Shown: positions 4,143 through 52,834 of the stretch, piece by piece
How the letters are laid out: the number at the start of each line of letters is the position of its first letter
Position numbering within the stretch: the stretch's first letter is position 1
NCBI GenBank assembly: GCA_944389545.1
Contig: CALXMT010000002.1
Coordinates: 108,645 to 172,644, forward strand
DNA from: an uncultured Kiritimatiellota bacterium
GTDB taxonomy: Bacteria > Verrucomicrobiota > Kiritimatiellia > RFP12 > DVOR01
Direction: 5' to 3'
Length of the DNA: 64,000 nucleotides
Made by a program: the position numbers and the translations under genes
The notes under the pieces: generated by a model
The model's input: only the letters and a program-made list of their open reading frames with translations
What the model was told of the DNA's origin: nothing
Databases searched by the model: none

Positions 4143-5636
4143 TTATTGCACCGGCTCCATGTCGCCGGACATCATGTCGGGGTTGGTTTCGATGCGGTCC
4201 TTGAAACGCGTCGTGGCGCCGTCGAAGTTCAGGCGCACCTCGCCGGTGGCGCCGTTGCGGTTCTTCGACACGTCCACAATGGCCAGGAGACGGTCATCGT
4301 GCTCCGGCACGCGGCTGCTCATGAAGCTGGGCCGCCGCAACAACAAAATCACGTCCGCGTCCTGCTCGATGGCGCCGGAGTCACGCAGGTCGGAGTTCTT
4401 GGGCTTCTCGTCGCCGCCGCGCTGCTCCGGGTTACGCGACAGCTGGGAGAGGACGATGACGGGCACGTTCAGTTCCTTGGCCATCGCCTTGATCTCGCCC
4501 GAAATCTTCGCCACCATCACCTGCTGCCCCTGCTGGGCGAACTCGCGGTAGGAGAGCAATTGCAGGTAGTCGATAACGATGAGTTCCACGGGGTTGCGTT
4601 TATGGGCGTGACGCGCACGGGCACGCAGTTCCATCACGTCCAGACCGCCCTGGTCATCGCAGAGGATCGGCGTCTCCTGGAGTTCCTTCGCGGCGGATTT
4701 CAGGAGCGGCAAGACCACGTCCTTCTTGACGAACTGCCCCTTCTCCACCTCGCGCGCAGAGACCCCCGCGATACCGCAAAGCATACGCGTGGTCAGCTGC
4801 ATTTGCGGCATTTCCAACGAGAAGACCAAGACCGTGCGCTTCTTCACCCTGCCGTCTTCCGAGGGGAAGGGCCGTCCCATGATGTCGCGGCCGCGCGCCA
4901 CGCACTCGGCGATGTTCATTGCCAGCGACGTCTTGCCCATGGAAGGACGCGCCGCCAAAACAATCATTTCGCCCCGGTGCAACCCGCGCAGTTGGTTGTC
5001 CAACGCCTTGAAGCCCGTCGGGATACCGGAGAGTTCGCCGGGGTGCTCCAGTTGACGCGTCAGCATGGAGAGCGTCTCGTCCACCGAGGTTCGCCAATCC
5101 ACACTGGAGCCACTCTTGGTGCGCCCCTCGCCGATGCCCAGGATGGTCTGCTCGGCCATGCCCAGCACGTAGTCCGCGGACTGTGAGGCATCGTAGACAT
5201 TCGCCTCCACCTCGCGCACCGCGCCCAGGATGCAACGGCGCAGATACTGCTCCATCACCAGCTCGGCATAGTAACTCGCGTGCGCGCTGGTCGGGGTCCG
5301 CTCCATCAGCTCCGTGAGCGCCCGCAGACCGCCCACCGCGTCCAAGTCGCCCGTCCCCTTGAGGAAGTTCGACACCGTGATGCCGTCGACCGGCTGCCCC
5401 TTCGAGGCCAACCGCGTGATGGCGGCATAGATGCTGCGATGGGTCGGATCGACAAAAGCCTCCGCCACCAAACCCTTTGTGGAGCAGATGTCCAACACCC
5501 GCACCGGATCCAAGAGAATCGAACCCAACAACCCCTGCTCGGCCTCAATATCCTGCGGCAATTCACGGCGCAACGGCGCCTCCCCCGCCATCTCGGACAG
5601 GGGCATCTGCATCTCCACTCGCTTTTTTCTAGGCAT
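4143..5636 (-). CDS. dnaB: replicative DNA helicase DnaB
   Basis: N-terminal IEAEQGLLGSILLDP, Walker A ARPSMGKTSLAMNIA, and RecA-like C-terminal ...IVIDYLQLL...SQLSR. Confidence 0.9.
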   Translation of the reverse strand: MPRKKRVEMQMPLSEMAGEAPLRRELPQDIEAEQGLLGSILLDPVRVLDICSTKGLVAEAFVDPTHRSIYAAITRLASKGQPVDGITVSNFLKGTGDLDAVGGLRALTELMERTPTSAHASYYAELVMEQYLRRCILGAVREVEANVYDASQSADYVLGMAEQTILGIGEGRTKSGSSVDWRTSVDETLSMLTRQLEHPGELSGIPTGFKALDNQLRGLHRGEMIVLAARPSMGKTSLAMNIAECVARGRDIMGRPFPSEDGRVKKRTVLVFSLEMPQMQLTTRMLCGIAGVSAREVEKGQFVKKDVVLPLLKSAAKELQETPILCDDQGGLDVMELRARARHAHKRNPVELIVIDYLQLLSYREFAQQGQQVMVAKISGEIKAMAKELNVPVIVLSQLSRNPEQRGGDEKPKNSDLRDSGAIEQDADVILLLRRPSFMSSRVPEHDDRLLAIVDVSKNRNGATGEVRLNFDGATTRFKDRIETNPDMMSGDMEPVQ

Positions 5637-5697
5637 TGTCTACTTCTTGGGCACGTCTCGGAAAATCAGCCCTATAGTTTACCAAAACGTCCCCCTC

Positions 5698-6055
5698 CTG
5701 TCCGTTAGTTTTCCGCAAAGCAATAACGCTTGGGAGAATGGGGACCGAATGGGGACCGCAAAGACGCAATAATGGGCGCGAACCGCTTCGGGCGCCATCG
5801 GTCGCTCTGCGGCTTCGCCGCTGACCGCGACCGCCGCCCTCCGTTTCGCGCCTTGAAGTAAGGAAAGTTGGGAGTAGGGTGAAGCCGCTCCATAAAAGTG
5901 AACATCTAAACTCCCTATCATCCCTTTTGAGCGCCCCTTCAGGGGCGCGATAGCGTGGAAATCCCAAGGGCGGCGCAACCAACGGGAGCGATGGAGCCCG
6001 CCGGGTTTCCAAGCCAAACCGTCTTCGGGCAAAACTTTCCTGGACACTCTTCGGT
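5698..6055. mobile_element. MITE-like non-coding repeat element copy 1 (reverse orientation relative to copy at 52462..52795; left TIR degenerate)
   Basis: ~85-90% identical over >300 bp to the reverse complement of 52462..52795. Ends carry ...GGACCGCAAAGACGCAA... and ...TTCCTGGACACTC (TIR-like). Small ORFs on it are artefacts. Confidence 0.6.
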
Positions 6056-6336
6056 CCTATTGCCTAAACAAAATCATACATTCAGTTGTCAAAGAGCAGC
6101 GCGTGAATGCTTGGTGAACGCACCACGCACCTTTGCCAAAGACCGTCATTCGTCCTCTCTAAATCAATGACAATCCTCTTGCCCAACGCAAGATACGCCA
6201 TCTTCCAGACCTGTCATTTGGTAACGAGATTTGAGGCGCACACCCTATCTCTTATCGGTCTAATAGCGTACTGCTCTACAATAGATATGCGCCATTCAAC
6301 CATTGGTGAACGGCGCACTTGCGGATGTGTTTACTG

Positions 6337-7206
6337 TCACAGCGCGGTAAAACAGTGAGACTCTAAGCAAAAGGCGTCAACATCCGATTTGAGGCTCTTG
6401 GCCGAGCAAGCGTTGTCCGTGTACAAGAAGAATGGGAGTGTTCCCTCATCTACCGTTTGCACGGGGCAAAGGTGCAACGCGGAAGCTTGCCGCTCTTTGG
6501 AAGAAGCACCAAGCGCATGGGCATTCGAGTTGGAGGGGTGAAGGTCTTTCTTCCTTCGCAACTCTTTCAGTTGGTCAGCCAAAAACGCTTGTGCGGACCC
6601 ACTCTCCATCTTACCTTCATAGAGGAAGATTTTGCGTGACCGCAATGTTCTCGCCCAGTCGCGGAAAGCTTGGGCCGTAGGCAATGCGCTCGGTTCCGCG
6701 AGCCTACCGAATCCGCGCGTGGCGCGGAGACCAAGCGCACCAACCCAAACGAAGGCTTGAACCGTCTCTTCTACTTGATCCCATAGGTTTGTCGGCACTG
6801 GGCGTACGGCTCGAATCTTGAGCGTGAACGTGCTTCCTGCGCCGATGTAATGTCCCTCTGTTGTACGGTAAACATTCTGCTTGTTGCCGGAGACCCGCGC
6901 GAAATACCCGATATAGCCCATCGGCGTGTCGTTGGGCAATGAGACAGCCCGCTGGTTGTTGACGATGTTGGTGTCTTCCACTCGCACGGCAATTGCCGAA
7001 GCGACGGCCCTAGATTCACCGTGGACACCGCCGAACAACACCTTTTCCTCTTCACGGACATCGCGATTTCCAGCCAAGACGCGGAACCACCAACGCAACG
7101 CTCCGCGGATGGAGGGCGCACGGATTTCAGGTTTGTTCTGGTCTGCCCCTGCAAGGAAGGTCGACGTGATGAAGGTCAGTTTTTTGGTGATTTCCTGTTC
7201 GTTCAT
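6337..7206 (-). CDS. cmr1: type III-B CRISPR RAMP subunit Cmr1
   Basis: 289 aa; KPEIRAPSIRGALRWWFRVLAG (Cmr1 RxxxRGxxRxW motif) and a glycine-rich loop GALGLRATRGFGRL. Last gene of the cmr operon. Confidence 0.7.
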   Translation of the reverse strand: MNEQEITKKLTFITSTFLAGADQNKPEIRAPSIRGALRWWFRVLAGNRDVREEEKVLFGGVHGESRAVASAIAVRVEDTNIVNNQRAVSLPNDTPMGYIGYFARVSGNKQNVYRTTEGHYIGAGSTFTLKIRAVRPVPTNLWDQVEETVQAFVWVGALGLRATRGFGRLAEPSALPTAQAFRDWARTLRSRKIFLYEGKMESGSAQAFLADQLKELRRKKDLHPSNSNAHALGASSKERQASALHLCPVQTVDEGTLPFFLYTDNACSAKSLKSDVDAFCLESHCFTAL

Positions 7207-12225: not shown

Positions 12226-12684
12226 TCAAATCCGTTTCATCCACCTCAGACGCAACACGTGCCACCCTGTGATTGCCGACGGCGCCGCCGCCTGGCCCGG
12301 GGCCGGTCGGCCTCCCCCTGCCACATCCGGCGACAACACATAACATTCCGCGAAGCATTCCCCGTCCAATTCCGGCAATCCCTCCGCGTTCAACCGCAAT
12401 GCCGGGCGCGGCACCCGCGGCTTCAACGTTCCCGCCGACACCCCCAGAAAGGCCTCCGCCGCACCCTGCGTCTCCGCGTGTCCCCAGAACGACCGAACCA
12501 CCGCCCCAGACGCCAACGCCTCCCGCAAGGTCTCCACCCTTATTTCCTCGATCTCCACACGCCACCCCCGCACCAACGTCAACGGGAAGGTATTTCCAAT
12601 CAACAACGTCCCACTCACGCCTTCGCCTCCCACTTTCCTGGCCTCCAGTTCCGGATGGCCTGGACGACATAATCGTTTGGGCAT
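12226..12684 (-). CDS. hypothetical protein (152 aa) between card1 and cas10; coding status uncertain
   Basis: ATG-initiated ORF in a locally GC-rich 400-bp gap. Overlaps the card1 3' end by ~70 nt and has no recognisable motif. Several alternative frames are also open. Confidence 0.3.
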   Translation of the reverse strand: MPKRLCRPGHPELEARKVGGEGVSGTLLIGNTFPLTLVRGWRVEIEEIRVETLREALASGAVVRSFWGHAETQGAAEAFLGVSAGTLKPRVPRPALRLNAEGLPELDGECFAECYVLSPDVAGGGRPAPGQAAAPSAITGWHVLRLRWMKRI

Positions 12685-13811
12685 GGCATCGGTAACTCTA
12701 GCAACATCAAATTACCGGCATCTTCGATTCGGGTCAATAGGTTTTGATAATCGGTCTCTACGTTTCCTTTGGTGTGCCCCAAGTTCTTGGAGGATGTCAC
12801 CAAGATTCCGCGTCCAAATGTACCACCATACTCATCAACAATATCACTGAATCGCTGAATTTGCTCGGAACTCACATACCCAGACTTACACTCTACAAGG
12901 TAAAGGCAGAATCCATCCGTGAATGAAACGTCAAATTCTTGCCTAGGCACACTTGTATCCTCAAAGGAGATACTTGCACCCCGTTGAAAATCATAACATC
13001 CTGGCAACCGTTTCACTTGACAGAGTACGTATGTCTCCAACCAAAGCCCTGTCACAAAACGGCAGGTCTCGATATCCCCTTTTGTCTGGCGCACGTTACT
13101 CAACAATCTCACACACCGCTCCGTTGCGGCACGGTCACGTGTTTTGTCCAAGAAATGTTTGGCTAAAGCGTCCAAATCTCCAGATAATACAGACTTAGCA
13201 TATTTTTGCATATCGCCTAGATGGTCGCTCATCTTACCGATATAACCACGGAATCCCCATCGATGTGCGCAAAGGGCACCTGCCAATTCCTCTTCTTCTT
13301 GAGAAACACCCCACTCGCCTGGGACGAAGATATCGGAAGAGCAGAGGCGCACGAATTGTTCTACGGTGGAGAATCCGCGTCTCAGATGCACTTCGCGGTC
13401 TCCACCCACATCAAGTACCCTGCGCGACTGTGTGTCTACATAAAAACACGATAATCCCGTCCAAGCATTAACTAAAGACAATGCCATCAGCTTGGTTCCG
13501 CCCGTGACGTTCGCGGCCACGGATTGCCCCTTATACTCCTCGTGTAGAGCAACAAAATCTTCTCGTAGACGCCGTTGGTTATACGAATCCACCAACTTAA
13601 TCGCTATCGGCATTTCGGCAGTGGCAAACACTGACACTAATCGTTTCGCGACCACCTCTGTCTTTTCTGTTGCCAATAAGATATGCGTTTTGGCCGGAAC
13701 ATTCAGAATGGCGAATGCCACCGGTAATTCCTGTTCGCCAATCAAATGCAATACGACATCAAACACAGACAGATTCTCTCCAAGCTTACTCATCGATCGC
13801 TCCTTGCTCAT
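12615..13811 (-). CDS. can2: CARF-domain + PD-(D/E)xK nuclease, Card1/Can2-like cyclic-oligoadenylate-activated effector
   Basis: ~398 aa; N-terminal Rossmann-like CARF with VTGGTKLMALSLVN. C-terminal EFDVSFTDGFCLYLVECKSG supplies the D...ExK catalytic triad. First gene of the cas operon next to the array. Confidence 0.65.
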   Translation of the reverse strand: MSKERSMSKLGENLSVFDVVLHLIGEQELPVAFAILNVPAKTHILLATEKTEVVAKRLVSVFATAEMPIAIKLVDSYNQRRLREDFVALHEEYKGQSVAANVTGGTKLMALSLVNAWTGLSCFYVDTQSRRVLDVGGDREVHLRRGFSTVEQFVRLCSSDIFVPGEWGVSQEEEELAGALCAHRWGFRGYIGKMSDHLGDMQKYAKSVLSGDLDALAKHFLDKTRDRAATERCVRLLSNVRQTKGDIETCRFVTGLWLETYVLCQVKRLPGCYDFQRGASISFEDTSVPRQEFDVSFTDGFCLYLVECKSGYVSSEQIQRFSDIVDEYGGTFGRGILVTSSKNLGHTKGNVETDYQNLLTRIEDAGNLMLLELPMPCPNDYVVQAIRNWRPGKWEAKA

Positions 13812-13847
13812 CAAACATCGTTAATCCTACCCCAAACTCCCAAAAAA

Positions 13848-16394
13848 GTCAACCATCCTCGCCTTTCGGTTGAAGGATGGTTGCGAGTCGTACGGGAAGT
13901 AGGACGACCCCGATGCCCTGTCGCAACGGGCTCTTGGCTGAGGGATGGTTGCGAGCTAAGTCATTGGTACAAGGAAGTCGAGTTGTCGCAACCGCCTTTC
14001 GGCTGAGGGATGGTTGCGAGGGCACGGCTCCCCAAGGAACCTACGTTCTTCAAGGTCGCAACCGCCTTTCGGCTGAAGGATGGTTGTGAGGGAGGGCAAG
14101 CTCTGCGCTCGACTCTCCATCTACGTCGCAACCGCCTTTCGGCTGAAGGATGGTTGTGAGACCATGCCAGAAAGGTATGGAGAGCTCGCCACAAGTCGCA
14201 ACCGCCTTTCGGCTGAAGGATGGTTGTGAGCTTAGTCGAGAAGACTAAGAAATTTTGGAAGGAAGTCGCAACCGCCTTTCGGCTGAAGGATGGTTGTGAG
14301 ATGGTCTCACGGCCTCAACCCGCAGCCCTGCAAAGTCGCAACCGCCTTTCGGCTGAAGGATGGTTGTGAGTCATCATCCACAACGGCTGCCTCACCCGCG
14401 CCGAGTCGCAACCGCCTTTCGGCTGAAGGATGGTTGTGAGTTACATCCAATGGATATGGATTTGATGAGGCTGTGTCGCAACCGCCTTTCGGCTGAAGGA
14501 TGGTTGTGAGACAAGGTCCAAAGAACGATTCATAAGGTCCATGTGTCGCAACCGCCTTTCGGCTGAAGGATGGTTGTGAGTTAAAGGTGTGGACCCCAGC
14601 TCCCTCTCGGAGTCTGTCGCAACCGCCTTTCGGCTGAAGGATGGTTGTGAGCCTATGGCTTTGACGAAAACGCCATCTTCCACATGTCGCAACCGCCTTT
14701 CGGCTGAAGGATGGTTGTGAGTTAAAGGTGTGGACCCCAGCTCCCTCTCGGAGTCTGTCGCAACCGCCTTTCGGCTGAAGGATGGTTGTGAGCCTATGGC
14801 TTTGACGAAAACGCCATCTTCCACATGTCGCAACCGCCTTTCGGCTGAAGGATGGTTGTGAGACTGATGCAGATTGAACTCGCCGCCCTGATGGAGTCGC
14901 AACCGCCTTTCGGCTGAAGGATGGTTGTGAGATGGGTGCCACCAAACCGCTTTCGACTTCTTTGAGTCGCAACCGCCTTTCGGCTGAAGGATGGTTGTGA
15001 GTGTGCGGCTATCCCGTGTTTATCTGTCAGCTGACGTCGCAACCGCCTTTCGGCTGAAGGATGGTTGTGAGCCAACAGAACCCGTTTCATAGATGAGAGC
15101 TCCAGTCGCAACCGCCTTTCGGCTGAAGGATGGTTGTGAGTTCTTGGCCTGGTCGCGTTTGTCGGAACGGATGTGTCGCAACCGCCTTTCGGCTGAAGGA
15201 TGGTTGTGAGTGCGGGGGCCTTGAGCGTCGCCGAGCTTGTCTGTGTCGCAACCGCCTTTCGGCTGAAGGATGGTTGTGAGAGCTCAACGCCCTCCTCAAC
15301 GCGCGCGCCGAGGAGTCGCAACCGCCTTTCGGCTGAAGGATGGTTGTGAGCACGGAGCGCCGGAGGCGCCCAAAAATCGCAGATGTCGCAACCGCCTTTC
15401 GGCTGAAGGATGGTTGTGAGGCCGAAAAGAAGCCCGAGCCCGCCGCCAAGCCTTGTCGCAACCGCCTTTCGGCTGAAGGATGGTTGTGAGACGTCAAGCC
15501 AGTTCGTCGTCGCGTTCTCCTGCGTGTCGCAACCGCCTTTCGGCTGAAGGATGGTTGTGAGTCGGAGGATGGCACCCTCCAGTTGCGCAATCTGGGTCGC
15601 AACCGCCTTTCGGCTGAAGGATGGTTGTGAGGTCACGGAAGAGACCGAGACGCTCTACGAGAGCGTCGCAACCGCCTTTCGGCTGAAGGATGGTTGTGAG
15701 TTGGCGACACCGTCCCCGTCTCCGCCACCGAGACGTCGCAACCGCCTTTCGGCTGAAGGATGGTTGTGAGTGGCCGGCGTGACCGCCAACGACGCCTTGG
15801 TCCGGTCGCAACCGCCTTTCGGCTGAAGGATGGTTGTGAGTCGTCTCCAATGCAGTTCAGTGTCGTGGCTCAAGTCGCAACCGCCTTTCGGCTGAAGGAT
15901 GGTTGTGAGCCGTCCAGAGGCGCGTCGTCCGGCCCTGGTCTGTCGCAACCGCCTTTCGGCTGAAGGATGGTTGTGAGCGGAAAAATCCGCGGCCTCGGCT
16001 CCACCGACGCGTCGCAACCGCCTTTCGGCTGAAGGATGGTTGTGAGTTTCCCCATCGGGCCTCGCCACGATGGGCACCAGGTCGCAACCGCCTTTCGGCT
16101 GAAGGATGGTTGTGAGTCCCGCTCGACGTGCTCATGCTTTGGTTTTCCGAGTCGCAACCGCCTTTCGGCTGAAGGATGGTTGTGAGGGGAATGCCGCATG
16201 ATGCCCTATGACGTTTGCGCGTCGCAACCGCCTTTCGGCTGAAGGATGGTTGTGAGTTGGAGTTAATGGAGACCACTCCGGTGGACATGGTCGCAACCGC
16301 CTTTCGGCTGAAGGATGGTTGTGAGCGCCAAGGCGCAGAAGCTCGCCGAGGAGGCGGGGTCGCAACCGCCTTTCGGCTGAAGGATGGTTGTGAG
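13848..16394 (-). CRISPR. CRISPR array, 37 repeats of 36 bp (GTCGCAACCGCCTTTCGGCTGAAGGATGGTTGTGAG), 36 spacers of 29-37 bp; leader at 16.4-kb end, degenerate repeats at 13.85-kb end
   Basis: Direct repeats every 69-72 bp. The three leftmost repeats are mutated (trailer end) and an AT-richer leader lies right of 16394. Inferred transcription is toward lower coordinates, co-directional with the cas genes. Confidence 0.95.
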
Positions 16395-16620
16395 TATATC
16401 AAAAAATCGGGTTGATTGCATGGGGGTTATTTGGCGATTTGCGCGAACCTCTGGGGAAAAGGGAGATTTTGTTTGGGATGGGCAGGCGTATTTTTTTTGG
16501 AAGGGAGAGACAACTTCTTCTGTGATAAGCAATTCTTATGTTTGTGCGGCGTGCGCGAACCTCCCAGGGTTTGAAGGGGGGTGATGGGTTCGCGCAGGGA
16601 AGGGGCGGAGAGGCCTTTTA
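16395..16620 (-). promoter_or_regulatory. CRISPR leader with internal GCGCGAACC(T)C repeats
   Basis: AT-rich start (TATATCAAAAAATCGGG...) and three copies of GCGCGAACCyC in direct or inverted orientation. Adjacent to the youngest repeat. Confidence 0.45.
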
Positions 16621-16631
16621 GAAGGGGTGTT

Positions 16632-16768
16632 GGCGGACCACTATAGGGTCTCGGTGTGGACCCCTATAAGGGTTGACCGCGGACCCCTATAAGGGTTGGC
16701 CGCGGACCACTATAGGGTCTCATCTGCGACCACTATAGGGGTCGGGGCGGACCCTTATAGGGTCTGAA
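16632..16768. repeat. iteron cluster A: six tandem ~22-bp units with near-palindromic core GACCACTATAGGGTC / GGACCCCTATAAGGGTTG, preceded by AGGGGTGTTGG
   Basis: Read directly from the sequence; cognate cluster at 47262..47400. Confidence 0.8.
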
Positions 16769-16782
16769 GGGCGGCTGGCGCC

Positions 16783-16855
16783 GCCCCGGAGAACGGAGAA
16801 CAGAGAACGGAGAACGGAAACGCCCCTGCGGGGCGACGGGCGAAGCTCCGAGAAG
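16783..16855. repeat. GAGAACR heptad tandem repeat + CCCCTGCGGGGCGACGGGCG module (mosaic intergenic repeat family)
   Basis: Same module at 22622-22735, 25995-26125, 33045-33215, 53487-53600 and inverted at 53700-53765. Confidence 0.7.
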
Positions 16856-16985
16856 ACCAAGCCGCTAAATTTCTAAACTTTTCTAGAGCGTCCTGCGTGC
16901 GGTAGCACGCCATTAATCTGCTCAAAATCTGCGAAAGCTGCGTTTTTCGGAGATTCGGGGTGCAAATGCATGACGGGTGAAGGCG

Positions 16986-17031
16986 GAACCAAACTTCTAA
17001 ACTTCCAAACTTCTAAACTTCTAAACTTCCA
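16986..17031. repeat. AAACTTCY octamer tandem repeat
   Basis: aacttctaaacttccaaacttctaaacttctaaacttcc; related copies at 26245-26275, 33476-33510 and 52600-52630. Confidence 0.7.
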
Positions 17032-17047
17032 TTTGCGGGTGCAAAAA

Positions 17048-17092
17048 AAAGGCCCCCGGGGGGCCGGGGGCTTTTTGGGGAGTGAGGGGTGG
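17048..17092 (-). terminator. Rho-independent terminator of glgP (GC hairpin GGCCCCCGGGGGGCCGGGGGC flanked by A/T runs, bidirectional)
   Basis: Perfect GC stem directly after the glgP stop codon, with an A8 run on one side and a T5 run on the other. Confidence 0.7.
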
Positions 17093-17095
17093 GCC

Positions 17096-19600
17096 TTACT
17101 TGACCTGGAAGGAGGGGAGGTGCCAGATGTCTTCGGCGTATTCGCGGATGGTGCGGTCGCTGGAGAACTTGCCGGCGGAGGCGACGTTCATCAGGGAGGC
17201 TTTGTTCCAGGCGGTCTGGTCGCGGTAGAGGGCTTCGACGCGGTCTTGGGCCTTGATGTAGTCGGGCAGGTCTTTGAGGAGCATGTAGTAGTCGTTGTAG
17301 TCCAGGAGGTTCTGGAGGAGGGGCTCGAAGATTCCGGGGGCCATGAGGGAGAAGACGTTGCGGCGGATCATGTCGAGCGCGCGCTTGATCTCGGGGTTGC
17401 TCTCGTAGATGGCCTTGGAGTTGTAGGTGGGGCGGAGTTTGGCGACTTCTTCGGTTTTGAGGCCGAAGATGACGATGTTGTCGTCGCCGACTTCCTGGGC
17501 GATTTCGACGTTTGCGCCGTCGAGGGTGCCGAGGGTGATGGCGCCGTTGAGCATGAGTTTCATGTTGCCGGTGCCGGAGGCCTCGGTGCCGGCGAGGGAG
17601 ATTTGCTCGGAGACGTCGGCGGCGGGGATGATTTTCTCGGCGAGGGAGACGCGGTAGTCGGGGAGGAAGGCGACGGCGATGCGGCCCTTGACGAGGGGGT
17701 GGGAGTTGACGACGCTGGCGACGCCGTGGATGAGGCGGATGATGAGCTTGGCGACCCAGTATCCGGGGGCGGCTTTGGCGCCGAAGACGAAGACGCGGGG
17801 GTAGACGTCGAGGTCGGGCTTTTCAATCAGGCGATTGAAGAGGATGATGATGTAGAGGACGAGGAGGAGCTGGCGCTTGTACTCGTGGAGGCGCTTGACC
17901 TGGACATCGAAGATGGCGTCGGGGGAAACCTGGAAGCCGAGGGTGTTGAAGATGGTGTTGGCGAGGATTTCCTTGTTGGCGCGTTTGATTTCGGCGAAGC
18001 GCTTGAGGAAGGCTTTGTCGTTGACCTTGGCTTTGAGCTTGGAGAGCTGGCTGAGGTCGGTGACCCAGCCGTCGCCGATGGTCTCGGTGATGAGGGCGGC
18101 GAGGCGGGGGTTGGCCTTGAGGAGCCAGCGGCGCTGGGTGATGCCGTTGGTCTTGTTGGAGAAGTGGGTGGGCATGATCTCATAGAAGTCCTTGAAGATG
18201 GTCTTCTTGAGGATCTCGGTGTGGAGTGCGGCGACGCCGTTGACGGCGGAGGTGCCGACGAGGCAGAGGTTGGCCATGCGGACGAATTTATCGCCGCTTT
18301 CGTCGATGAGGCTCATGCGGGCGAGGCGGGCGACGTCGCCGGGGAAGAGGGTGGCGACCTGCTGGAGGAAGCGTGCGTTGATCTCGTAGATGATCTGCAT
18401 GTGGCGGGGGAGGACGCGCTCCATGAGGGGGACGGGCCACTTTTCGAGGGCTTCGGGGAGGACGGTGTGGTTGGTGTAGCCGGTGCAGGCGCGGACGTAG
18501 GTCCAGGCGTCGTCCCAGGTGAGGCCTTCGACGTCCACGAGGATGCGCATGAGCTCGGGGATGACGAGGGTGGGGTGGGTGTCGTTGAGCTGGATGAAGA
18601 CGTACTTGGGGAGGTGGCGCCATTCGTGGCCTTCCTCGCGGAAGCGGCGGAGGATGTCGTGGACGGAGGCGGCGACGAAGAGGTATTGCTGGCGGAGGCG
18701 GAGCTCTTTGCCGGCGGTGGTGGAGTCGTTGGGGTAGAGGACTTTGGTGAGGTTCTCGGCGAGGACTTTGCTTTCGACGGCTTCGACGTAGTCGCCGCGG
18801 TTGAATTCGTCGAGGGAGAATTCGTTGGTGGCTTTGGCGCTCCAGAGGCGGAGGGTGGAGACGGTTTTGCCTTGGTAGCCGACGATGGGGAGGTCGTAGG
18901 GGACGGCCTGGACCTGTTGCGCGGGGACCCAGACCCATTCGTCGCGGCCGGTGCGGCCGGTGTAGTGCTCGACGTGGCCGCCGAAGCCGATGAGGCAGGC
19001 GTATTCGGGGCGCTGGATTTCCCAGGGGTAGCCGTATTTCAGCCAGTTGTCGGGCTCTTCGCGCTGTTCGCCGTTGACGATGCGCTGGCGGAAGATGCCG
19101 TAGTCGTAGCGCAGGCCGTAGCCGGTGGCGGGGAGGTTGAGGGTGGCGAGGGAATCCATGAAGCAGGCGGCGAGGCGGCCGAGGCCACCGTTGCCGAGGC
19201 CGGCGTCCATCTCGTAGTCGCGGAGGCGGTTCCAGTCCAGGCCGAGGGAGTCCATGGCTTCGCGGCACTGCTGCTCGAGGCCGAGGTTGATGACGTTGTT
19301 GCCGAGGAGGCGGCCGATAAGGAACTCGAGGGAGAGGTAGTAGACGCGGCGGACCTTGGCGGCGCGGTAGGCGTCTTGGGTGGCCATCCAGCGGTCGACG
19401 ATGCGGTCGCGCACGGCATAGGCGAGGGCTTTGTAGCAATCGCGTTCGGTGGCTCGGTCGCCGCTCTTGGCGAGGGAGAAACGCATGTTCCAGAGGAAGT
19501 CCTGGGCGAGGCCCTCGGCGGTGAACTCAGCGGAGGGGTGGTTGCCGGGCAGGACGACCTTTTCGGTGGTTTTGTCCTTGGTCTTGGTGGACGTGCTCAT
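17096..19600 (-). CDS. glgP: glycogen/maltodextrin phosphorylase
   Basis: 834 aa; EFLIGRLLGNN, NGGLGRLAACFMDSLATL and the pyridoxal site EASGTGNMKLMLNGA. Confidence 0.95.
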   Translation of the reverse strand: MSTSTKTKDKTTEKVVLPGNHPSAEFTAEGLAQDFLWNMRFSLAKSGDRATERDCYKALAYAVRDRIVDRWMATQDAYRAAKVRRVYYLSLEFLIGRLLGNNVINLGLEQQCREAMDSLGLDWNRLRDYEMDAGLGNGGLGRLAACFMDSLATLNLPATGYGLRYDYGIFRQRIVNGEQREEPDNWLKYGYPWEIQRPEYACLIGFGGHVEHYTGRTGRDEWVWVPAQQVQAVPYDLPIVGYQGKTVSTLRLWSAKATNEFSLDEFNRGDYVEAVESKVLAENLTKVLYPNDSTTAGKELRLRQQYLFVAASVHDILRRFREEGHEWRHLPKYVFIQLNDTHPTLVIPELMRILVDVEGLTWDDAWTYVRACTGYTNHTVLPEALEKWPVPLMERVLPRHMQIIYEINARFLQQVATLFPGDVARLARMSLIDESGDKFVRMANLCLVGTSAVNGVAALHTEILKKTIFKDFYEIMPTHFSNKTNGITQRRWLLKANPRLAALITETIGDGWVTDLSQLSKLKAKVNDKAFLKRFAEIKRANKEILANTIFNTLGFQVSPDAIFDVQVKRLHEYKRQLLLVLYIIILFNRLIEKPDLDVYPRVFVFGAKAAPGYWVAKLIIRLIHGVASVVNSHPLVKGRIAVAFLPDYRVSLAEKIIPAADVSEQISLAGTEASGTGNMKLMLNGAITLGTLDGANVEIAQEVGDDNIVIFGLKTEEVAKLRPTYNSKAIYESNPEIKRALDMIRRNVFSLMAPGIFEPLLQNLLDYNDYYMLLKDLPDYIKAQDRVEALYRDQTAWNKASLMNVASAGKFSSDRTIREYAEDIWHLPSFQVK

Positions 19601-22621: not shown

Positions 22622-22860
22622 GCTTATGCCGCCCCGGAGAACAGCGAACGGAGAACAGAGCGTGCAGGCCCAGAGGGCCAAACCTTCCACGGCCACGGAA
22701 CGCCCCTGCGGGGCGACGGATGGAGTTCCCAAGAAAATGATAAGGCACGAAACGGAGGGCGTCGGTCGCGGTCAGCGGTGAAGCCGTCGTCCAATCAGCT
22801 AATCAGCTGGATGCTCCGCTAGAGCACCCTTTCTTCGCGGTTTCCATTTTCCCGGACACA
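22622..22860. repeat. mosaic intergenic repeat: GAGAACR heptads + partial MITE-like element with one TIR (CGCGGTTTCCATTTTCCCGGACA)
   Basis: Shares modules with 25995-26262, 33045-33215 and 52462-52795. Confidence 0.65.
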
Positions 22861-25974: not shown

Positions 25975-26265
25975 TCACAAAAAGGTAATCGTGGGGCACC
26001 TCGGGTGCCCCGGAGAACGGAGAACAGAGAACGGAGAACGGGAGGGACGCTGACGCGTCCCGGAGAACAGAGAACAGAGAACAGAGAACAGAGCGCGCGG
26101 CAAGCGCGCGACGGGTGGGGTTTCTGGAAATTGACCAGACGCGAAACGGAGGGCGGCGGGCGCGGTCAGCGGCGGAGCCGCAGAGCGACCGATGGAGCCC
26201 GAGGCGTTTCGCGCCCACAGTTGCGTCTTTGCGGTCTCATTTCAATGAAAGACCAAGCCTCTAGA
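25975..26265. repeat. mosaic intergenic repeat: GGGGCACC-TCG-GGTGCCCC hairpin, GAGAACR heptads, GCGCGCGGCAAGCGCGCGACGGGTGGGG module, partial MITE-like element with TIR
   Basis: Near-identical modules at 53487-53600, 33045-33215 and 22622-22860. Confidence 0.7.
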
Positions 26266-33039: not shown

Positions 33040-33215
33040 AAGTCGGGCGCAGACGCGCCCCGGAGAACAGAGAACAGAGAACAGAGCGTGCAGGCCCAAA
33101 GGGCCAAACCTTCCACGGCCACAGAACGCCCCTGCGGAGCGACGGGCGGAGCGGTGGGAGGGTGTGGAAGATTTACCCTGCGGGGCTGACACGAAGAACA
33201 CGAAGGACCACAAAG
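33040..33215. repeat. mosaic intergenic repeat (GGGCGCAGACGCGCCC hairpin, GAGAACA heptads, CAGGCCCAAAGGGCCAAACCTTCCACGGCCAC module)
   Basis: Same module at 22640-22735 and a partial copy at 33395-33475. The hairpin can serve as the trkH terminator. Confidence 0.65.
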
Positions 33216-39875: not shown

Positions 39876-40117
39876 AATTACTCACCATTTTAGCAAACCA
39901 TGCCGCCTTCGTGCCCGTTGCTTTTTTGTAAGCAATAGTATCCGGGGAAATCGACAAGCCTCCTTTTCCCGCAAAAACGCCAATGTGCGCGAAGCCAGAT
40001 GGGCTAACGCCGGTCGCTTTGCGGGCTAAACGCCCGCTGATCGCACCCTCCCGCCCATCGTCTTCGCGCTTGGGCCGTCTTAAGAAGTCCTTTTGGCGCA
40101 GGGAAGTGGGGCGCGGG

Positions 40118-40140
40118 AGGGCGCACGACCGTGCGCCCGG
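40118..40140 (-). terminator. hairpin GGGCGCACG-ACC-GTGCGCCC after arginase-family gene
   Basis: Perfect 9-bp GC stem; a solo MITE TIR lies at 40168-40206 between it and the arginase-family gene stop at 40239. Confidence 0.5.
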
Positions 40141-40238
40141 CGTTAGCGCCCCACTTTTCCTGCAAGATTTGCGTCTTTGCGGTCTCCATTTTCCCCGGAC
40201 ATATTGTTTTGTAAACGAGCGTCACTTGCTGGACGCGC

Positions 40239-47158: not shown

Positions 47159-47184
47159 CATAGGAGTATATGACCCCTTTGTGG

Positions 47185-47213
47185 CACGCCTCGTGGCGTG
47201 CCTTTTTTATGTT
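47185..47213 (+). terminator. yggS terminator (GGCACGCCTCGTGGCGTGCC + T-run)
   Basis: Perfect hairpin followed by TTTTTTAT. Confidence 0.7.
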
Positions 47214-47261
47214 TACTTACGCGACGCCTCTGCCCTGGAAAAGGGGTGTTGGAGAAACCCT

Positions 47262-47400
47262 TAAGGGTCCGAGGTGAGACCCTATAGTGGTCGGGGTCGA
47301 GACCCTATAGTGGTCGGGGTCGAGACCCTATAGTGGTCCATGGTCGACCCCTATAGTGGTCCAGAACGAACCCTTAAGGGGTCCGCAACAGACCCCTTGC
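47262..47400. repeat. iteron cluster B: six tandem ~22-bp units (core GACCCTATAGTGGTC, flanking AACCCTTAAGGGGTCC), preceded by AGGGGTGTTGG
   Basis: Cognate of the cluster at 16632-16768; followed 12 bp later by a solo MITE TIR at 47412-47455. Confidence 0.8.
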
Positions 47401-47499
47401 TCTCGTACAAACCAATAGTGTCCGGGGAAAAAGAGATGGACCGCAAAGACGCAACTCTTGCAGGAAGATGAGGCGTCATTGAATCTTCTAAGTTTCTTG

Positions 47500-47640
47500 T
47501 GCGCCTGGGGTTGTTTCCAAAGAAATGATGGAAACACAAGGGAAGGGCACGGTAGAGAGGCCGTAAGGCCGAACGGTGAAGTGCCCAGGCCCTTGTGTTC
47601 CTTTCGTGTTTTCGTGGAAACATCCTCGGACAGTGTTGGC
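47500..47640 (+). ncRNA. candidate structured RNA / cis-regulatory leader upstream of PNPOx/Nim gene
   Basis: Nested helices are visible: GTTTCCA..TGGAAAC, ACAAGGG....CCCTTGT enclosing GGGCAC..GTGCCC and a GGCC-GUAA-GGCC tetraloop hairpin, then GTTCC..GGAAC. Lies in the untranslated gap before 47702. Confidence 0.3.
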
Positions 47641-47701
47641 CTAGCAGTGTGATAAAATAGGGCCAAAGCTCTAGACGGGACTTTTGAGTGAGGACGCGAC
47701 C

Positions 47702-48184
47702 ATGAGAAGAAAAGAACGTGAAGTGACAGATCTCAACGAGATTAAGGATATTCTGACACGGGCCGAGGTTCTCCGGGTCGCCTTGAACAACGGCGACTAT
47801 CCCTATCTCTTCCCGGTGAACTACGGATTTGTCATGGATGGCGCACAGTTGGTGCTCTTCTTTCATGGGGCGAAGGAGGGTGCCAAACACGCCATTATCG
47901 CGCGGGACAACAAGGTCACCTTTGAGGTCGATTGCGGCCATGCGCTGATGCAACCGCTCGGCGAGGAATCCTGCACTAGCAGTTTCGCCTATGAAAGCGT
48001 CATCGGAACCGGCACGATTGAAAAGGCCGCGGACTCAGAAAAAGAAGCCTTACTGCCCCTGTTGCTGGAACATTATGGAATCACGGCAAAGCATTTCAAT
48101 CCCGTACATCTGGCCAATACGGTCGTCTACAAAATCACGGCAACGACCTACACGGCCAAGCGCAGAGTCAACGACCGACTCTGA
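47702..48184 (+). CDS. pyridoxamine 5'-phosphate oxidase-family FMN-binding protein (Nim-like); start at MRRKEREV
   Basis: ILTRAEVLRVALNNGDYPYLFPVNYGF and the split-barrel PNPOx pattern. Confidence 0.7.
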   Translation: MRRKEREVTDLNEIKDILTRAEVLRVALNNGDYPYLFPVNYGFVMDGAQLVLFFHGAKEGAKHAIIARDNKVTFEVDCGHALMQPLGEESCTSSFAYESVIGTGTIEKAADSEKEALLPLLLEHYGITAKHFNPVHLANTVVYKITATTYTAKRRVNDRL

Positions 48185-48512
48185 TAGATGCCGATAAAGT
48201 GTAAACCCGCAAAGCGACCGGTGTTACTCCATCCGGCGTCGCGTGTACTGGTGTCTTCGCGGAAAGACTTCCTCGAATGCTCTTGTGCTTGACGGGGTGG
48301 TGCGGGATGATATAAACTAACCACATCAGTACGAAGGGACTCGTAAATGGCGTTCACTGCAATGTGTTTGAAGCTTGGCGTTGTGGCGATGCTCACGGCG
48401 CAGGGCAACGCCGTGCGGAGGGCGTTTGTGTGGGATTTCACGAAGCCGGTTGCCACACTGCCCTTTTCGTTGAGATAGGTGCAGTGGGTGAAGTCAACGT
48501 CACGACTGTTGA

Positions 48513-49661
48513 TTGGTGTCACTGATGAAGAAGTCGCAATCACGGAGGACGCATCGAGGTAAAGTGGCCTCGTTGTTGCTTCGTGTCGTGCTTGTCATCT
48601 TTGCTTTGTGTGCAACGATAACGCTCTATCTTGTACATGACGAGACGATGCGTGAACGCCGCAATGCACCCCAGCGGGAAGTCGAGGTGCACGAATTGTT
48701 GCAGGTTCGTGAGGGAGGTGTTTTTCCACCACGGGTACAGGACCAACCTTGTCTGCGGACAAGTGATGGTGAGATTGTGCATTGGGAGGCTTCATTGGGA
48801 GAGTTGGCGGAGTTTTGCCGCCAGGGATTGCCCTTTAGGATGAACGTGTATGAGATGTATGGAGGGCTGTATTATTATTCTTCTTATGCAGCCAGAGGGT
48901 GGTTGATTTTCTCGATGTCCTTGTTTCTTTTCTCTTTACACATTCTGTTTTGGCCTGTCAAACGGTCGAAAGTGGAACCCGTCGCTTGTATATCCAAGCG
49001 GGGAGCTTCCATTGGCATGGCCGTTACGGACAAGATAACGTTTGACCTGTCTCAACACGAGCGTCGTCGCCGTATTGTGTTCCAAGTAGTGATTCAGGGT
49101 GCCTTTGCCGTCCTCTTCGTCGGGTGGATGACGTATGCATGGGGATGGTCTTGGTTATTGTTGGCGGTAGCGCTTCCGGTTTTACTGAGCACGGCGCTTG
49201 TTTGTTGGCCAGACGCTCTCGTCCGTTTCATAGGTGGGGCGTTACTCCTATGCGTTCCCTTTTTGGCAGAGGCTTTCGGACACGGTTTGTATTGGCGGGA
49301 AACGACGCGTATTGAAGCAATTCCGCGATATGTGCGCTACGACATGAGCCATTCTGCCGACAAAAAGCATGGGGCGCCTGAGGAGGTTTACGAAGTGCTC
49401 TTCAGCTATGATTGGGCGGGAAGAGAACGTTATGGGTTTATACGCCTTCGCTCAAATCAAGCCGCAGAATGTGCTTTGATCCGTCAGTTGAGAGGGGGTC
49501 ACCTTCAATTGTTGCGTGATCAGTCGCCTGAGGGTCGCTTTTTTGCCTTTGACGCGGCTTGGGCCATCAGCCAACTTGTCAGTGGGGCGGGCGCGCTCTT
49601 TTGCTTCTTGTGCGGAGGTGCCATGCTCTTGCTGGGGCAGAAGAAGCGGAGGACCGAATGA
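48513..49661 (+). CDS. hypothetical polytopic membrane protein (low-GC island)
   Basis: 382 aa with at least 5 TM segments and no recognisable motif. Local GC is ~42-50% versus ~67% background. Confidence 0.45.
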   Translation: MVSLMKKSQSRRTHRGKVASLLLRVVLVIFALCATITLYLVHDETMRERRNAPQREVEVHELLQVREGGVFPPRVQDQPCLRTSDGEIVHWEASLGELAEFCRQGLPFRMNVYEMYGGLYYYSSYAARGWLIFSMSLFLFSLHILFWPVKRSKVEPVACISKRGASIGMAVTDKITFDLSQHERRRRIVFQVVIQGAFAVLFVGWMTYAWGWSWLLLAVALPVLLSTALVCWPDALVRFIGGALLLCVPFLAEAFGHGLYWRETTRIEAIPRYVRYDMSHSADKKHGAPEEVYEVLFSYDWAGRERYGFIRLRSNQAAECALIRQLRGGHLQLLRDQSPEGRFFAFDAAWAISQLVSGAGALFCFLCGGAMLLLGQKKRRTE

Positions 49662-49893
49662 GACGGAACGCGCGGAACCAGAACATTGCCATCGCCCCCT
49701 TCGGCGCTGTCATCCGTATCCTTCAGGCATTTGAGAGGGTACACCAATGATGTACGTAAAAGAACTTGCCCCAAAAGAGTGGACGCTTCGATTCTGGTTG
49801 CATGGGCCACTGGCAACCCTTCGGGAGTGGAGGCATGAACGGGTCGAGTAGCATGGAAGACCGCAAAGATGGGTTTATGAGTGGAAGGACTAC

Positions 49894-50376
49894 TTGTTCA
49901 ACCTTATCGCAGGACTTCCTATTTTCCTGCTAGGATGTGGTCTATTCTATTATCATGCCTGTGTGGAAGAGAGTATCGCGGTTGGCGTTGTGGTGGCTGC
50001 TATCCCTTTTTGCGGAGGGGCGTGGATGGTTCTGGCTCCTCTTCGCTCTTGGCTTGGGCATTTCGCCCTTCATTATTATCTGACGCCATCAACAATCCTT
50101 GTCGTTTTCAGGTTTCTCTTCTTCAGCGTTTCCCTGTCCGCCCCAAAGCAAAGGATTGGCTTTGTTCTGATTGATCGGTATGAGGAGGTGGCCGTCATCA
50201 AGTTCGCGAATCTTTCGTTTACCCCCGTTGATAGACTTGATGATATCACCGTAGAACTGAAGTTTTATGGGTTGACCTTGTCTGATTGCCTGGCGTTGCG
50301 GTCTTATTTCAGCGGTAAGGCGTTTTATGTCTCCGGTGAGCATCCGGATGAGTATAAGGCGTACCGCGGCGGTTGA
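49894..50376 (+). CDS. hypothetical membrane-anchored protein (low-GC island)
   Basis: 160 aa with two N-terminal TM helices then a small soluble domain. Confidence 0.4.
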   Translation: MFNLIAGLPIFLLGCGLFYYHACVEESIAVGVVVAAIPFCGGAWMVLAPLRSWLGHFALHYYLTPSTILVVFRFLFFSVSLSAPKQRIGFVLIDRYEEVAVIKFANLSFTPVDRLDDITVELKFYGLTLSDCLALRSYFSGKAFYVSGEHPDEYKAYRGG

Positions 50377-50500
50377 CAAGTGTTGGTGAGCGGTGTATCC
50401 TATGAAACATGAGGATGATGTCTATGGGAACCGCATCAAGACGGCGACCTTCTTGGATAAGGAAGGGAATGGGACATCGTGGTTGAATAAGTGAGGCGGA

Positions 50501-52795: not shown

Positions 52796-52834
52796 TGTTT
52801 GTGGTGGGCGATTGACCCGAGCGTGGTCTTATTA

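What the first reader, a model, noticed from the sequence alone, without database searches (positions are those of the whole stretch)
16632..16768. Two cognate clusters of six near-palindromic ~22-bp iterons (core GACCACTATAGGGTC)
Clusters at 16632-16768 and 47262-47400 each contain six tandem units built from two related near-palindromes (GACCACTATAGGGTC and GGACCCCTATAAGGGTTG / AACCCTTAAGGGGTCC). Regularly spaced palindromic iterons are typical of protein-binding arrays (partition centromeres, plasmid origins, recombinase/transposase binding arrays), not of ordinary intergenic DNA. One cluster sits immediately next to the CRISPR leader.
Basis: seen in the sequence. Interest (0 to 1): 0.6.

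Follow-up and report, generated by a model that had tools for sequence, protein, structure and literature searches.

The report
Dispersed tandem near-palindrome repeat family
The two "iteron" clusters are real, but they are two copies of a repeat element found at about 47 or more intergenic sites in a closely related Kiritimatiellia genome, so this is a new example of ordinary bacterial interspersed repeats and not a replication origin, a centromere or a CRISPR accessory.

Summary
Both arrays exist: six near-palindromic units each, period 22-23 bp, at 16636-16764 and 47256-47383, far beyond chance. They are not a private cognate pair. A two-unit pattern scanned over 185,579 species genomes hit only two uncultured Kiritimatiellaeota MAGs. 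One MAG holds 43 loci with about 47 arrays of 3-8 units on 18 contigs (1.7 Mb).

All arrays lie between genes, in convergent, divergent and tandem contexts, with no orientation bias relative to transcription. Many dispersed copies share one ordered about 130-bp architecture: a degenerate terminal CCCTTAAGGG-type module, U1 GACCCTATAGTGGTC, U2 AACCACTATAGTGGTC, U3, U4 AACCCTTAAGGGTC, then an inverted terminal module. So a whole fold-back element was copied around the genome and then expanded locally. A 96-98% identical strain has five units instead of six at array 1.

The window is chromosomal (dnaB, bamA, rpoD, topA, dxr). No Rep, ParB, recombinase or transposase gene was found, no DnaA boxes lie near the arrays, and there is no GC-skew switch. 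None of the other arrays is next to this CRISPR repeat.

Best reading: an undescribed REP/BIME/BOX/MITE-like interspersed repeat family, probably mobilised in trans, with slippage-driven unit-number variation. The mobilising or binding protein is unknown. Interest is low to moderate.

The parts
16636..16764 (-). Array 1: six 15-16-bp near-palindromic cores with 22-23-bp start-to-start spacing. Most asymmetric units (GACCACTATAGGGTC) are in the reverse ('R') orientation on the + strand.
   Evidence: nhmmer E=4.5e-22.
16612..16635 (-). Terminal module of element 1 on the CRISPR-leader side (TTTTAGAAGGGGTGTTGGCG). It is a degenerate CCCTTxxAAGGGG-type end unit plus linker.
   Evidence: Flank consensus cCCCttAAGGGgcCTTtccGA over 49 arrays. 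Conserved in strain L051.
16765..16777 (-). Other terminal linker/module of element 1 (TGAAGGGCGGCTG). It abuts a GC hairpin and GGAGAAC heptamer repeats.
47256..47383 (+). Array 2: six cores with 22-23-bp spacing. The outer units are AACCCTTAAGGG(G)TC and the inner units are GACCC(C)TATAGTGGTC ('F' orientation). Two inner unit-plus-linker copies are identical, indicating local duplication.
   Evidence: nhmmer E=1.9e-22. Identical in L063 and L064.
47239..47255 (+). Terminal module of element 2 (AAAAGGGGTGTTGGAGA). The same module flanks the non-orthologous array L036:5165.
47384..47400 (+). Distal terminal module of element 2 (CGCAACAGACCCCTTGC). It pairs with 47240-47255 in the predicted 161-nt fold-back.
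   Evidence: -85.8 kcal/mol, z = -7.05.
47183..47202 (+). Context: intrinsic-terminator-like hairpin plus T-run of the yggS-like gene. It lies between that gene and array 2.
17052..17071 (-). Context: intrinsic-terminator-like hairpin plus T-run of glgP. It lies between glgP and array 1.
13920..16394 (-). Context: type III-B (Cmr) CRISPR array of 36 repeats. The leader is at 16395 to about 16611, between the array of repeats and element 1.

Best explanation
Each cluster is one copy of a lineage-specific, non-coding interspersed repeat element of a Kiritimatiellia clade. The element is about 110-180 bp long. It has two inverted terminal modules of degenerate CCCTTAAGGG-type units, enclosing 3-8 tandem 22-24-bp units. 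Each unit is a 14-16-bp near-palindromic core, (G/A)ACC(C/AC)-TATA-(G/GT)GGTC, followed by a 7-8-bp linker.

The element as a whole was copied to dozens of intergenic sites. The most likely route is that it behaves as a non-autonomous fold-back element whose cores and ends are recognised by an enzyme encoded elsewhere. After arrival, individual arrays gain and lose units by slipped-strand mispairing or unequal exchange between units.

The two window copies are independent members of this family. They have no special relationship to each other, to the CRISPR array, or to replication or partition.

Shown here:
- genome-wide dispersal;
- restriction to intergenic DNA;
- conserved order of distinct units across dispersed copies;
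- inverted terminal modules and fold-back potential;
- unit-number change between strains;
- presence or absence between close species.

Inferred, not shown:
- transposition as the copying process;
- the existence and identity of the trans-acting protein;
- slippage as the cause of unit-number change.
For: Distribution:
- the two-unit pattern hits 43 loci in one MAG (CALXOF01, 18 contigs, 1.71 Mb by my sum of contig lengths), 1 locus in a second Kiritimatiellaeota MAG, and nothing in the other species genomes. There are 0 hits in viral contigs and only chance-level, unrelated hits in JGI metagenomes.
- about 47 arrays of 3-8 units in those loci. Periods are 22, 23 or 24 bp in 166 of 167 intervals.
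- every array is intergenic, in 12 convergent, 7 divergent and about 26 tandem contexts (my tally of the rows). There is no orientation bias relative to flanking transcription (10 same, 12 opposite).

Architecture:
- 25 four-unit copies align end to end. Most share the same ordered, distinct units and linkers (U1-CGAGGTC-U2-GGGGTCGA-U3-...-U4).
- the flanks are conserved for about 20 bp and mirror each other.
- the whole element folds into one long hairpin (z = -5.2 to -7.1).

Dynamics:
- a 96-98% identical strain has array 1 at the same place with 5 units instead of 6.
- a contig (L065) ends inside array 2.
- close relatives lack an array downstream of glgP (GlgP 94% identical in L055-L062; 95% in L052) and downstream of yggS (YggS 97% identical).
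- L002 has five identical consecutive units, and array 2 has two.

Constraint on cores:
- cores are 7.4% and linkers 22.8% divergent from consensus.
- My count on the alignment gives about 2 of 62 core positions changed against about 4 of 22 linker positions between the window and L051.

Exclusion of origin or centromere readings:
- (chromosomal window; no Rep, Par or recombinase gene; no DnaA boxes; no skew switch; no link to CRISPR).
Against: - No target-site duplication signal (shared k-mers across the ends are about as frequent as in mismatched controls).
- No clean filled-versus-empty orthologous site was found. At both window sites the neighbouring DNA is also rearranged in the relatives.
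- Few decayed copies exist. That also fits maintenance by selection for a host function.
- The lower divergence of the cores is partly an ascertainment effect, because copies were found through their cores.
Confidence: 0.7

Rival explanations
1. The arrays are host-function protein-binding platforms. A nucleoid-associated or architectural protein, or a gyrase/IHF-type factor as reported for E. coli BIMEs, binds the phased near-palindromes. The arrays are maintained by selection, not spread selfishly.
For: - Cores are much better conserved than linkers.
- Phasing is strict at 22-24 bp.
- Few decayed copies are seen.
- A more distant relative has a single unit in the orthologous yggS spacer.
- Both window arrays lie beyond the terminators of the flanking genes, in untranscribed-looking DNA.
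Against: - Core length varies (14, 15 or 16 bp) and the two arms vary independently (odds ratio 1.2, p=0.82). That is awkward for a rigid dimer.
- Arrays are present or absent between species with 94-97% identical flanking proteins.
- Placement relative to genes looks random.
- No candidate binding protein was identified.
Confidence: 0.15
2. The arrays act at the RNA level, for example as 3'-end stabilising hairpins, terminators, insulators, or a small RNA made of tandem hairpins.
For: The whole element is predicted to form a very stable hairpin as RNA. REP elements in enterobacteria can stabilise upstream mRNA (established knowledge).
Against: - No orientation bias relative to transcription, and 7 arrays lie between divergent genes.
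- Both window arrays lie downstream of terminator-like sites.
- No promoter-like site in or next to the arrays.
- No Rfam family match.
- No covariation between the arms of a unit.
Confidence: 0.05
3. The two arrays are the matched ends of one unit. That unit would be either a 30.6-kb invertible or mobile segment bounded by inverted arrays, or the recombination sites that brought in the two low-GC regions (CRISPR-Cmr at 6-16.8 kb and the island at 47.4-53 kb).
For: - The arrays are in opposite unit orientation.
- Each lies at the junction of core genes and a lower-GC region.
- Each lies exactly where synteny with close relatives breaks.
Against: - The 30 kb between the arrays holds rpoD, metK, dxr, cdsA and topA, which is core DNA.
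- Over 34 array-bearing intergenic regions, GC shifts are not significantly larger than in 80 controls (p=0.14).
- Arrays elsewhere are single, not paired.
- No recombinase gene is present.
Confidence: 0.04
4. The arrays are true iterons, a centromere, or a CRISPR-leader accessory site.
For: Tandem repeats at about 22-23 bp resemble plasmid iterons. One array abuts a CRISPR leader, and that position is kept in a sister strain.
Against: - There are about 47 or more chromosomal loci.
- No Rep or Par genes and no DnaA boxes.
- No GC-skew switch in the window.
- No other array in the loci held is near this CRISPR repeat.
Confidence: 0.02

Closest known systems
REP / BIME elements of Enterobacteria and Pseudomonas (REPINs, mobilised by RAYT Y1 transposases)
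   Same: Both are short imperfect palindromes confined to intergenic DNA. Both occur at tens to hundreds of copies and are lineage-specific. Both are often clustered in tandem with semi-conserved linkers of alternating length; here the linkers alternate between 7 and 8 bp, giving a 46-bp super-period, as in BIME-2. Both have a variable number of units, and single strands fold into hairpins.
   Different: The cores here are shorter (14-16 bp against 20-40 bp) and the period is a strict 22-24 bp. The arrays carry their own inverted terminal modules. Units are not in regularly alternating orientation. No RAYT gene and no REP-flanked gene were found in the DNA available, and the arms do not covary.
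BOX elements of Streptococcus pneumoniae (boxA-boxB(n)-boxC)
   Same: Both have a modular build: two different terminal modules enclose a variable number (0-8) of a tandem internal module. Both are dispersed in intergenic regions, have fold-back potential, and lack coding capacity and a known transposase.
   Different: BOX modules are 45-59 bp and not near-palindromic. The phylum is unrelated and there is no sequence similarity.
Bacterial MITEs (e.g. Correia/NEMIS, RUP, Nezha)
   Same: Both are small, non-coding and multi-copy, with terminal inverted repeats and a fold-back structure. Both are present or absent between close relatives.
   Different: No target-site duplication was detected, and no parent IS with matching ends is known. 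The interior here is a tandem array, not unique sequence.
MIRU-type VNTR loci of mycobacteria
   Same: Both are tandem repeats dispersed at some 40 intergenic loci, with strain-to-strain changes in unit number.
   Different: MIRUs are 46-100 bp, not palindromic, and lie inside operons where they can be translated.
Plasmid iterons and partition-site repeat arrays
   Same: Both are phased tandem repeats of about 22 bp that look like protein-binding sites.
   Different: Iterons occur at one or a few loci per replicon, next to rep or par genes, an AT-rich unwinding region and DnaA boxes. None of that is present here, and the copy number is about 47 or more on the chromosome.

Membership tests
Plasmid-type iterons (origin of replication) | Tandem direct repeats of about 17-22 bp with roughly two-turn phasing | tested here: met
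   Period 22-24 bp, 3-8 units.
Plasmid-type iterons (origin of replication) | Adjacent gene for the cognate Rep initiator | tested here: not met
   The neighbours are a CRISPR array, glgP, a yggS-like gene and a Pyridox_ox_2 gene. No Rep family was found anywhere in the window (precomputed Pfam).
Plasmid-type iterons (origin of replication) | DnaA boxes and/or a strand-skew switch at the site | tested here: not met
   There are 5 near-matches to TTATCCACA in 64 kb (4.2 expected) and none is near either array. Cumulative GC skew shows no origin-type switch at either array; it rises steadily from about 13 kb to the window end, apart from a small dip at 43-47 kb.
Plasmid-type iterons (origin of replication) | One or a few loci per replicon | tested here: not met
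   About 47 arrays on 18 contigs of one MAG.
parS / partition centromere | Sites clustered near parAB or the origin, few per genome, bound by ParB | tested here: not met
   No ParA or ParB gene in the window. The arrays are dispersed over all large contigs. Binding itself cannot be tested here.
REP/BIME (RAYT-associated) | Imperfect palindromes, strictly extragenic, high copy number, frequently in tandem clusters | tested here: met
REP/BIME (RAYT-associated) | A RAYT (Y1 HUH transposase) gene in the genome, typically flanked by inverted REPs | tested here: inconclusive
The whole genome could not be searched.
REP/BIME (RAYT-associated) | Hairpin maintained by compensatory change between the arms | tested here: not met
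   The AC/GT insertions and the terminal G/A...C/T positions of the two arms vary independently (odds ratios 1.2 and 1.05, p=0.82 and 1.0).
MITE | Small non-coding element with terminal inverted repeats | tested here: met
   Mirror-image flank consensus of about 20 bp. Whole-element hairpin with z = -5 to -7.
MITE | Target-site duplication flanking each copy | tested here: not met
   Shared k-mers across the ends are close to the control rate (k=6: 15 observed against 8.3 expected; k=7: 3 against 2.6; k=8: 0 against 0.9). The boundaries are fuzzy, so a 2-3-bp duplication cannot be excluded.
MITE | Filled and empty orthologous sites; a parent IS with the same ends | tested here: inconclusive
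   Arrays are absent downstream of glgP and yggS in close relatives, but the adjacent DNA is rearranged there too. No parent element was seen.
BOX-like modular repeats | Distinct terminal modules enclosing a variable number of one tandem internal module | tested here: met
   Terminal CCCTTAAGGG-type modules with 3-8 internal units.
CRISPR-leader-associated element | Recurrent association with CRISPR leaders | tested here: not met
   The window's CRISPR repeat occurs in 1 of 76 loci, the strain-level orthologue L051. Other CRISPR types were not searched for.

The most novel reading that the evidence does not exclude
The near-palindromic cores are the cis sites of an as-yet unknown protein system specific to this Kiritimatiellia clade. 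Two forms are possible. One is a new mobilising enzyme for a fold-back element built from tandem recognition sites. A candidate is the expanded AAA-ATPase_like + PD-(D/E)XK (PDDEXK_9) paralogue family, of which 5 of 7 copies in the sampled loci sit directly beside an array. The other is a genome-organising protein that binds about 50 phased arrays and marks rearrangement-prone intergenic sites. Both window arrays lie exactly at synteny breakpoints next to acquired DNA.
Probability: 0.12. Interest if true: 0.6.

Novelty: new member of a known kind. Interest (0 to 1): 0.27.

Why it matters
Practical value comes first. Annotators should not read these arrays as origins, centromeres or CRISPR accessories. 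The arrays also break short-read assemblies: contig L065 ends inside array 2.

The family is an undescribed interspersed repeat of an uncultured Kiritimatiellia lineage known only from metagenome assemblies (sampling source not established here). Its unit number differs between strains, which could make it a strain-typing marker. It lies at two synteny breakpoints in a clade whose gene order is very fluid, so it may contribute to rearrangement.

If a cognate protein exists, the strict 23-bp phasing and the position-specific units would make a neat system for studying how a protein reads tandem near-palindromes. Nothing here yet requires that.

Tried and rejected
- Rfam at gathering thresholds over the whole window: no match.
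- Viral contigs, two pattern variants: 0 hits.
- JGI metagenomes: 6 hits, all in 31-42% GC contigs. The best (L045/L046) is a 25-bp direct repeat in DNA with almost no ORFs and is not this family.
- Target-site duplication search: no signal.
- Y1/RAYT transposase tblastn: nothing found.
- Association with GC-content jumps (island borders) over 34 array-bearing against 80 control intergenic regions: not significant (p=0.14).
- Recurrent neighbour genes: only the AAA-ATPase_like + PDDEXK_9 family stands out (5 of 7, hypergeometric P=0.02). That does not survive correction over about 17 families, and the relative geometry is inconsistent.
- PADLOC and NCBIfam on the island ORFs and on one AAA-ATPase_like + PDDEXK_9 protein: no hits.
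- Literature: no paper holds the core motif in a relevant context or describes such repeats in Kiritimatiellia.
- Resemblance to phage promoters: the unit GACCACTATAGGGTC contains CACTATAGGG (T7 promoter -7 to +3, from memory) and the 23-bp period equals the T7 promoter length. However, the upstream match needs a 1-nt deletion, the palindromic variants would fire both ways, and no phage context exists. I treated it as coincidence.
- Tn7/CAST-type transposon ends: rejected. There are no tns genes, the CRISPR system is type III-B, the units are palindromic, and the arrays are unpaired.

Full report
**Observation.** The two clusters are present as described. TRF reports period-23 arrays at 16633-16765 and 47254-47364, and the repeat finder gives the same register. 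My unit scan finds six cores in each, at 16636-16764 and 47256-47383, spaced 22-23 bp. A strict one-unit pattern has 8 matches in the window against 0.51 expected, and none of 100 shuffles reaches 8. A profile of the element finds no third site in the 64 kb. Cores are 14-16 bp near-palindromes of the form (G/A)ACC(C or AC)-T(T)A(T)A-(G or GT)GGT(C/T), followed by 7-8-bp linkers.

**Local context.**
- The window is chromosomal. It encodes BamA, DnaB, Dxr, CdsA, TrkH, two sigma-70 paralogues, MetK, GlgP, TopA, a YggS-like protein, CoaBC and a tricorn-like protease.
- Array 1 lies between the leader of a type III-B (Cmr) CRISPR array and the 3' end of glgP, beyond glgP's terminator-like hairpin. 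The CRISPR array has 36 repeats at 13920-16394, and its degenerate repeats are at the cas-proximal end, so the leader is at 16395 onward.
- Array 2 lies just after the terminator-like hairpin of the yggS-like gene. It precedes a lower-GC stretch (47.4-53 kb) whose ORFs have no family hits, apart from one pyridoxamine-oxidase-like protein.
- No Rep, ParB, recombinase or transposase gene was found. No DnaA box lies near either array. Cumulative GC skew shows no origin-type switch at either array.

**Distribution elsewhere.** A pattern spanning two adjacent units was scanned over one genome from each of 185,579 species.
- It hit 43 loci in a single MAG, uncultured Kiritimatiellaeota BRZ_KQ__bin80. 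It hit one locus in a second Kiritimatiellaeota MAG and nothing else.
- The 43 loci lie on 18 contigs that sum to 1.71 Mb and contain about 47 arrays of 3-8 units. Four units is the commonest number, in 25 of 49 arrays. Periods are 22-24 bp in 166 of 167 intervals.
- The count is a lower bound. An array in a bin80-type contig found by another route (L067:16029-16111) does not match the search pattern.
- Viral contigs gave nothing. JGI metagenomes gave only unrelated low-GC hits.
- The window is from a sister lineage of bin80: YggS is 97% identical, and the cluster representative's longest contig has the length of a bin80 contig. Its own contigs are in ENA assemblies.

**Anatomy of the family.** Every array is intergenic. 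Contexts are 12 convergent, 7 divergent and about 26 tandem, close to what random intergenic placement would give. Orientation relative to the flanking genes is unbiased, 10 against 12 (the tallies are my counts over its rows).

When oriented alike, the 25 four-unit copies align over their whole length. Most share one order of distinct parts:
- terminal module ..AAAGGGGCTTTCTGA;
- U1 GACCCTATAGTGGTC, then linker CGAGGTC;
- U2 AACCACTATAGTGGTC, then linker GGGGTCGA;
- U3 GACCCTATAGTGGTC, then a linker;
- U4 AACCCTTAAGGGTC;
- terminal module CAGAAAGGCCCTTTAG.

The two flanks are mirror images and are conserved for about 20 bp. They amount to degenerate CCCTTAAGGG-type end units. Position-specific units shared by dispersed copies mean that the about 130-bp element as a whole was copied. 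The alternative, that arrays arose independently at each site, does not fit. Runs of identical unit-plus-linker copies (five in L002, two in window array 2) show secondary local expansion. As a single strand, the complete element folds into one long hairpin (z = -5.2 to -7.1).

**Dynamics.**
- A strain with 96-98% nucleotide identity to the window (L051) has array 1 in the same place. It has five units instead of six, plus a few substitutions. It shares no CRISPR spacer with the window.
- Two other assemblies are identical to the window at array 2, and a third contig ends inside the array.
- Relatives with 94-95% identical GlgP have neither an array nor a CRISPR locus downstream of glgP.
- The bin80-type species has yggS converging on a prismane gene across a 70-bp spacer with no array.
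- A more distant relative (YggS 86% identical) has a single U2-type unit with its linker in that spacer.
- Both window arrays therefore sit exactly where synteny with close relatives ends. Over all array-bearing intergenic regions, however, GC jumps are not significantly larger than in controls (p=0.14).

**Constraint.**
- In 20 canonical copies the cores differ from consensus at 7.4% of positions and the linkers at 22.8% (p=3e-15). Part of this is ascertainment, since copies were found through their cores.
- The window against L051 comparison was found through a protein and is free of that bias. It points the same way on small numbers: about 2 of 62 core positions changed against about 4 of 22 linker positions, by my count.
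- The two arms of a core do not covary. Perfect intra-unit pairing is therefore not what is being kept.
- Hardly any decayed copies are detectable.

**Interpretation.** The arrays are members of an undescribed, lineage-restricted interspersed repeat family of the REP/BIME, BOX and MITE kind. I think the most likely mechanism has two steps:
- trans-mobilisation of a non-autonomous fold-back element whose cores and ends are protein recognition sites;
- subsequent slippage-driven change in unit number.

The copying, the architecture and the unit-number change are shown. Transposition and the protein are inferred. Counting against the mechanism, I found no target-site duplication, no clean empty site and no transposase (a weak test). 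A host architectural-binding role is the main rival at about 0.15. RNA-level roles fit poorly with the lack of orientation bias, the position beyond terminators and the lack of covariation. The origin, centromere and CRISPR-accessory readings are contradicted by the distribution and the gene content.

**Comparison with known systems.** The closest analogues are BIME-2-type REP clusters and pneumococcal BOX elements.
- BIME-2-type REP clusters are tandem imperfect palindromes with alternating linkers. Here the 7/8-bp linkers give a 46-bp super-period.
- Pneumococcal BOX elements have terminal modules enclosing a variable number of an internal module.
- Membership in the RAYT-REP class cannot be claimed, because no RAYT was found and arm covariation is absent.
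- Membership in the MITE class fails on target-site duplication as far as it could be tested.

The family works like these elements but is not demonstrably a member of any named family. I rate it a new member of a known kind, of low to moderate interest.

Noticed in passing
window 5755-6040 (+), 52474-52774 (-), 39933-40206 (+), diverged copy 47413-47650; also L007:669-947 and L014:4831-5090: A second repeat family: a MITE-like element of about 300-340 bp. Its terminal inverted repeats are CAATA(C/G)TGTCCGGGGAA...GACCGCAAAGACGCAA on one end and ...CGTCTTCGCGGTAAAACTTCCCCGGACACTATTG on the other. It is 82-86% identical between the window and the bin80 MAG. One copy lies at the left edge of the CRISPR-Cmr region, one at the right edge of the 47.4-53 kb island, and a diverged copy lies 30 bp from array 2. 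Spurious ORFs such as 5679-6047 run across it.
   Followed up: partly
window 16787-16822, 22637-22660, 26011-26093, 33063-33086, 53499-53530; 17 of 76 loci: Heptamer tandem repeats (GGAGAAC/AGAGAAC) occur in many intergenic regions, usually beside short GC-rich hairpins (e.g. 16769-16786 and 16821-16835). On the opposite strand they read as a hairpin followed by a TTCTC-rich tail and score as terminator-like. Several sit directly beside 23-bp arrays (window array 1, L010, L012, L022, L023, L029), giving mosaic repeat regions. AAACTTCT octamer repeats are at 16991-17029.
   Followed up: partly
window 47684-52922: A lower-GC (0.49-0.55) stretch begins with a Pyridox_ox_2 gene. Five ORFs follow (48513-49661, 49894-50376, 50501-51718, 51884-52354, 52299-52922) that have no Pfam, NCBIfam or PADLOC hit. 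The stretch is absent from this position in the bin80-type species.
   Followed up: partly
L012:3-1343, L017:4398-5969, L030:3-1613 and 5271-6887, L040:1667-4483, L041:254-1915, L044:3406-5082: An expanded paralogue family of AAA-ATPase_like (PF09820) + PDDEXK_9 (PF08011) proteins, 55-78% identical to each other. Five of the seven are the immediate neighbour of a 23-bp array (hypergeometric P=0.02 uncorrected). The array can be upstream or downstream of the gene and in either orientation.
   Followed up: partly
window 13920-16394 versus L051:13377-15885: Two strains with 96-98% identical flanking genes share none of their 35 and 34 CRISPR spacers. Within the window array, two spacers occur twice, as an adjacent pair that is duplicated (spacers 9-10 equal 11-12). 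The Cmr operon includes a Card1-like CARF nuclease (12615-13814).
   Followed up: partly
window 16540-16620 and 16436-16452: The CRISPR leader contains a perfect 10-bp inverted repeat, TGCGCGAACC...GGTTCGCGCA, with a 25-nt loop (16550-16594 region). A further copy of the TGCGCGAACC arm, read on the + strand (GGTTCGCGCA on the transcribed - strand), lies nearer the array. Both are conserved in strain L051, while the sequence between them is not.
   Followed up: no
L072:1200-1290 (also L073, L074): In a relative with 86% identical YggS (GC 0.69), a single unit AACCACTATAGTGGTC with its linker GGGGTCGA sits inside a 10-bp inverted repeat (GCCTAGTCAA/TTGACTAGGC). It occupies the yggS-prismane spacer, the position orthologous to window array 2.
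   Followed up: partly
window 16970-17100 versus L051:12560-13000: The 280 bp between the glgP terminator and array 1 is made of short repeats and differs greatly in length and content between two strains that are otherwise 96-98% identical. This is much more divergent than the array or the leader.
   Followed up: no
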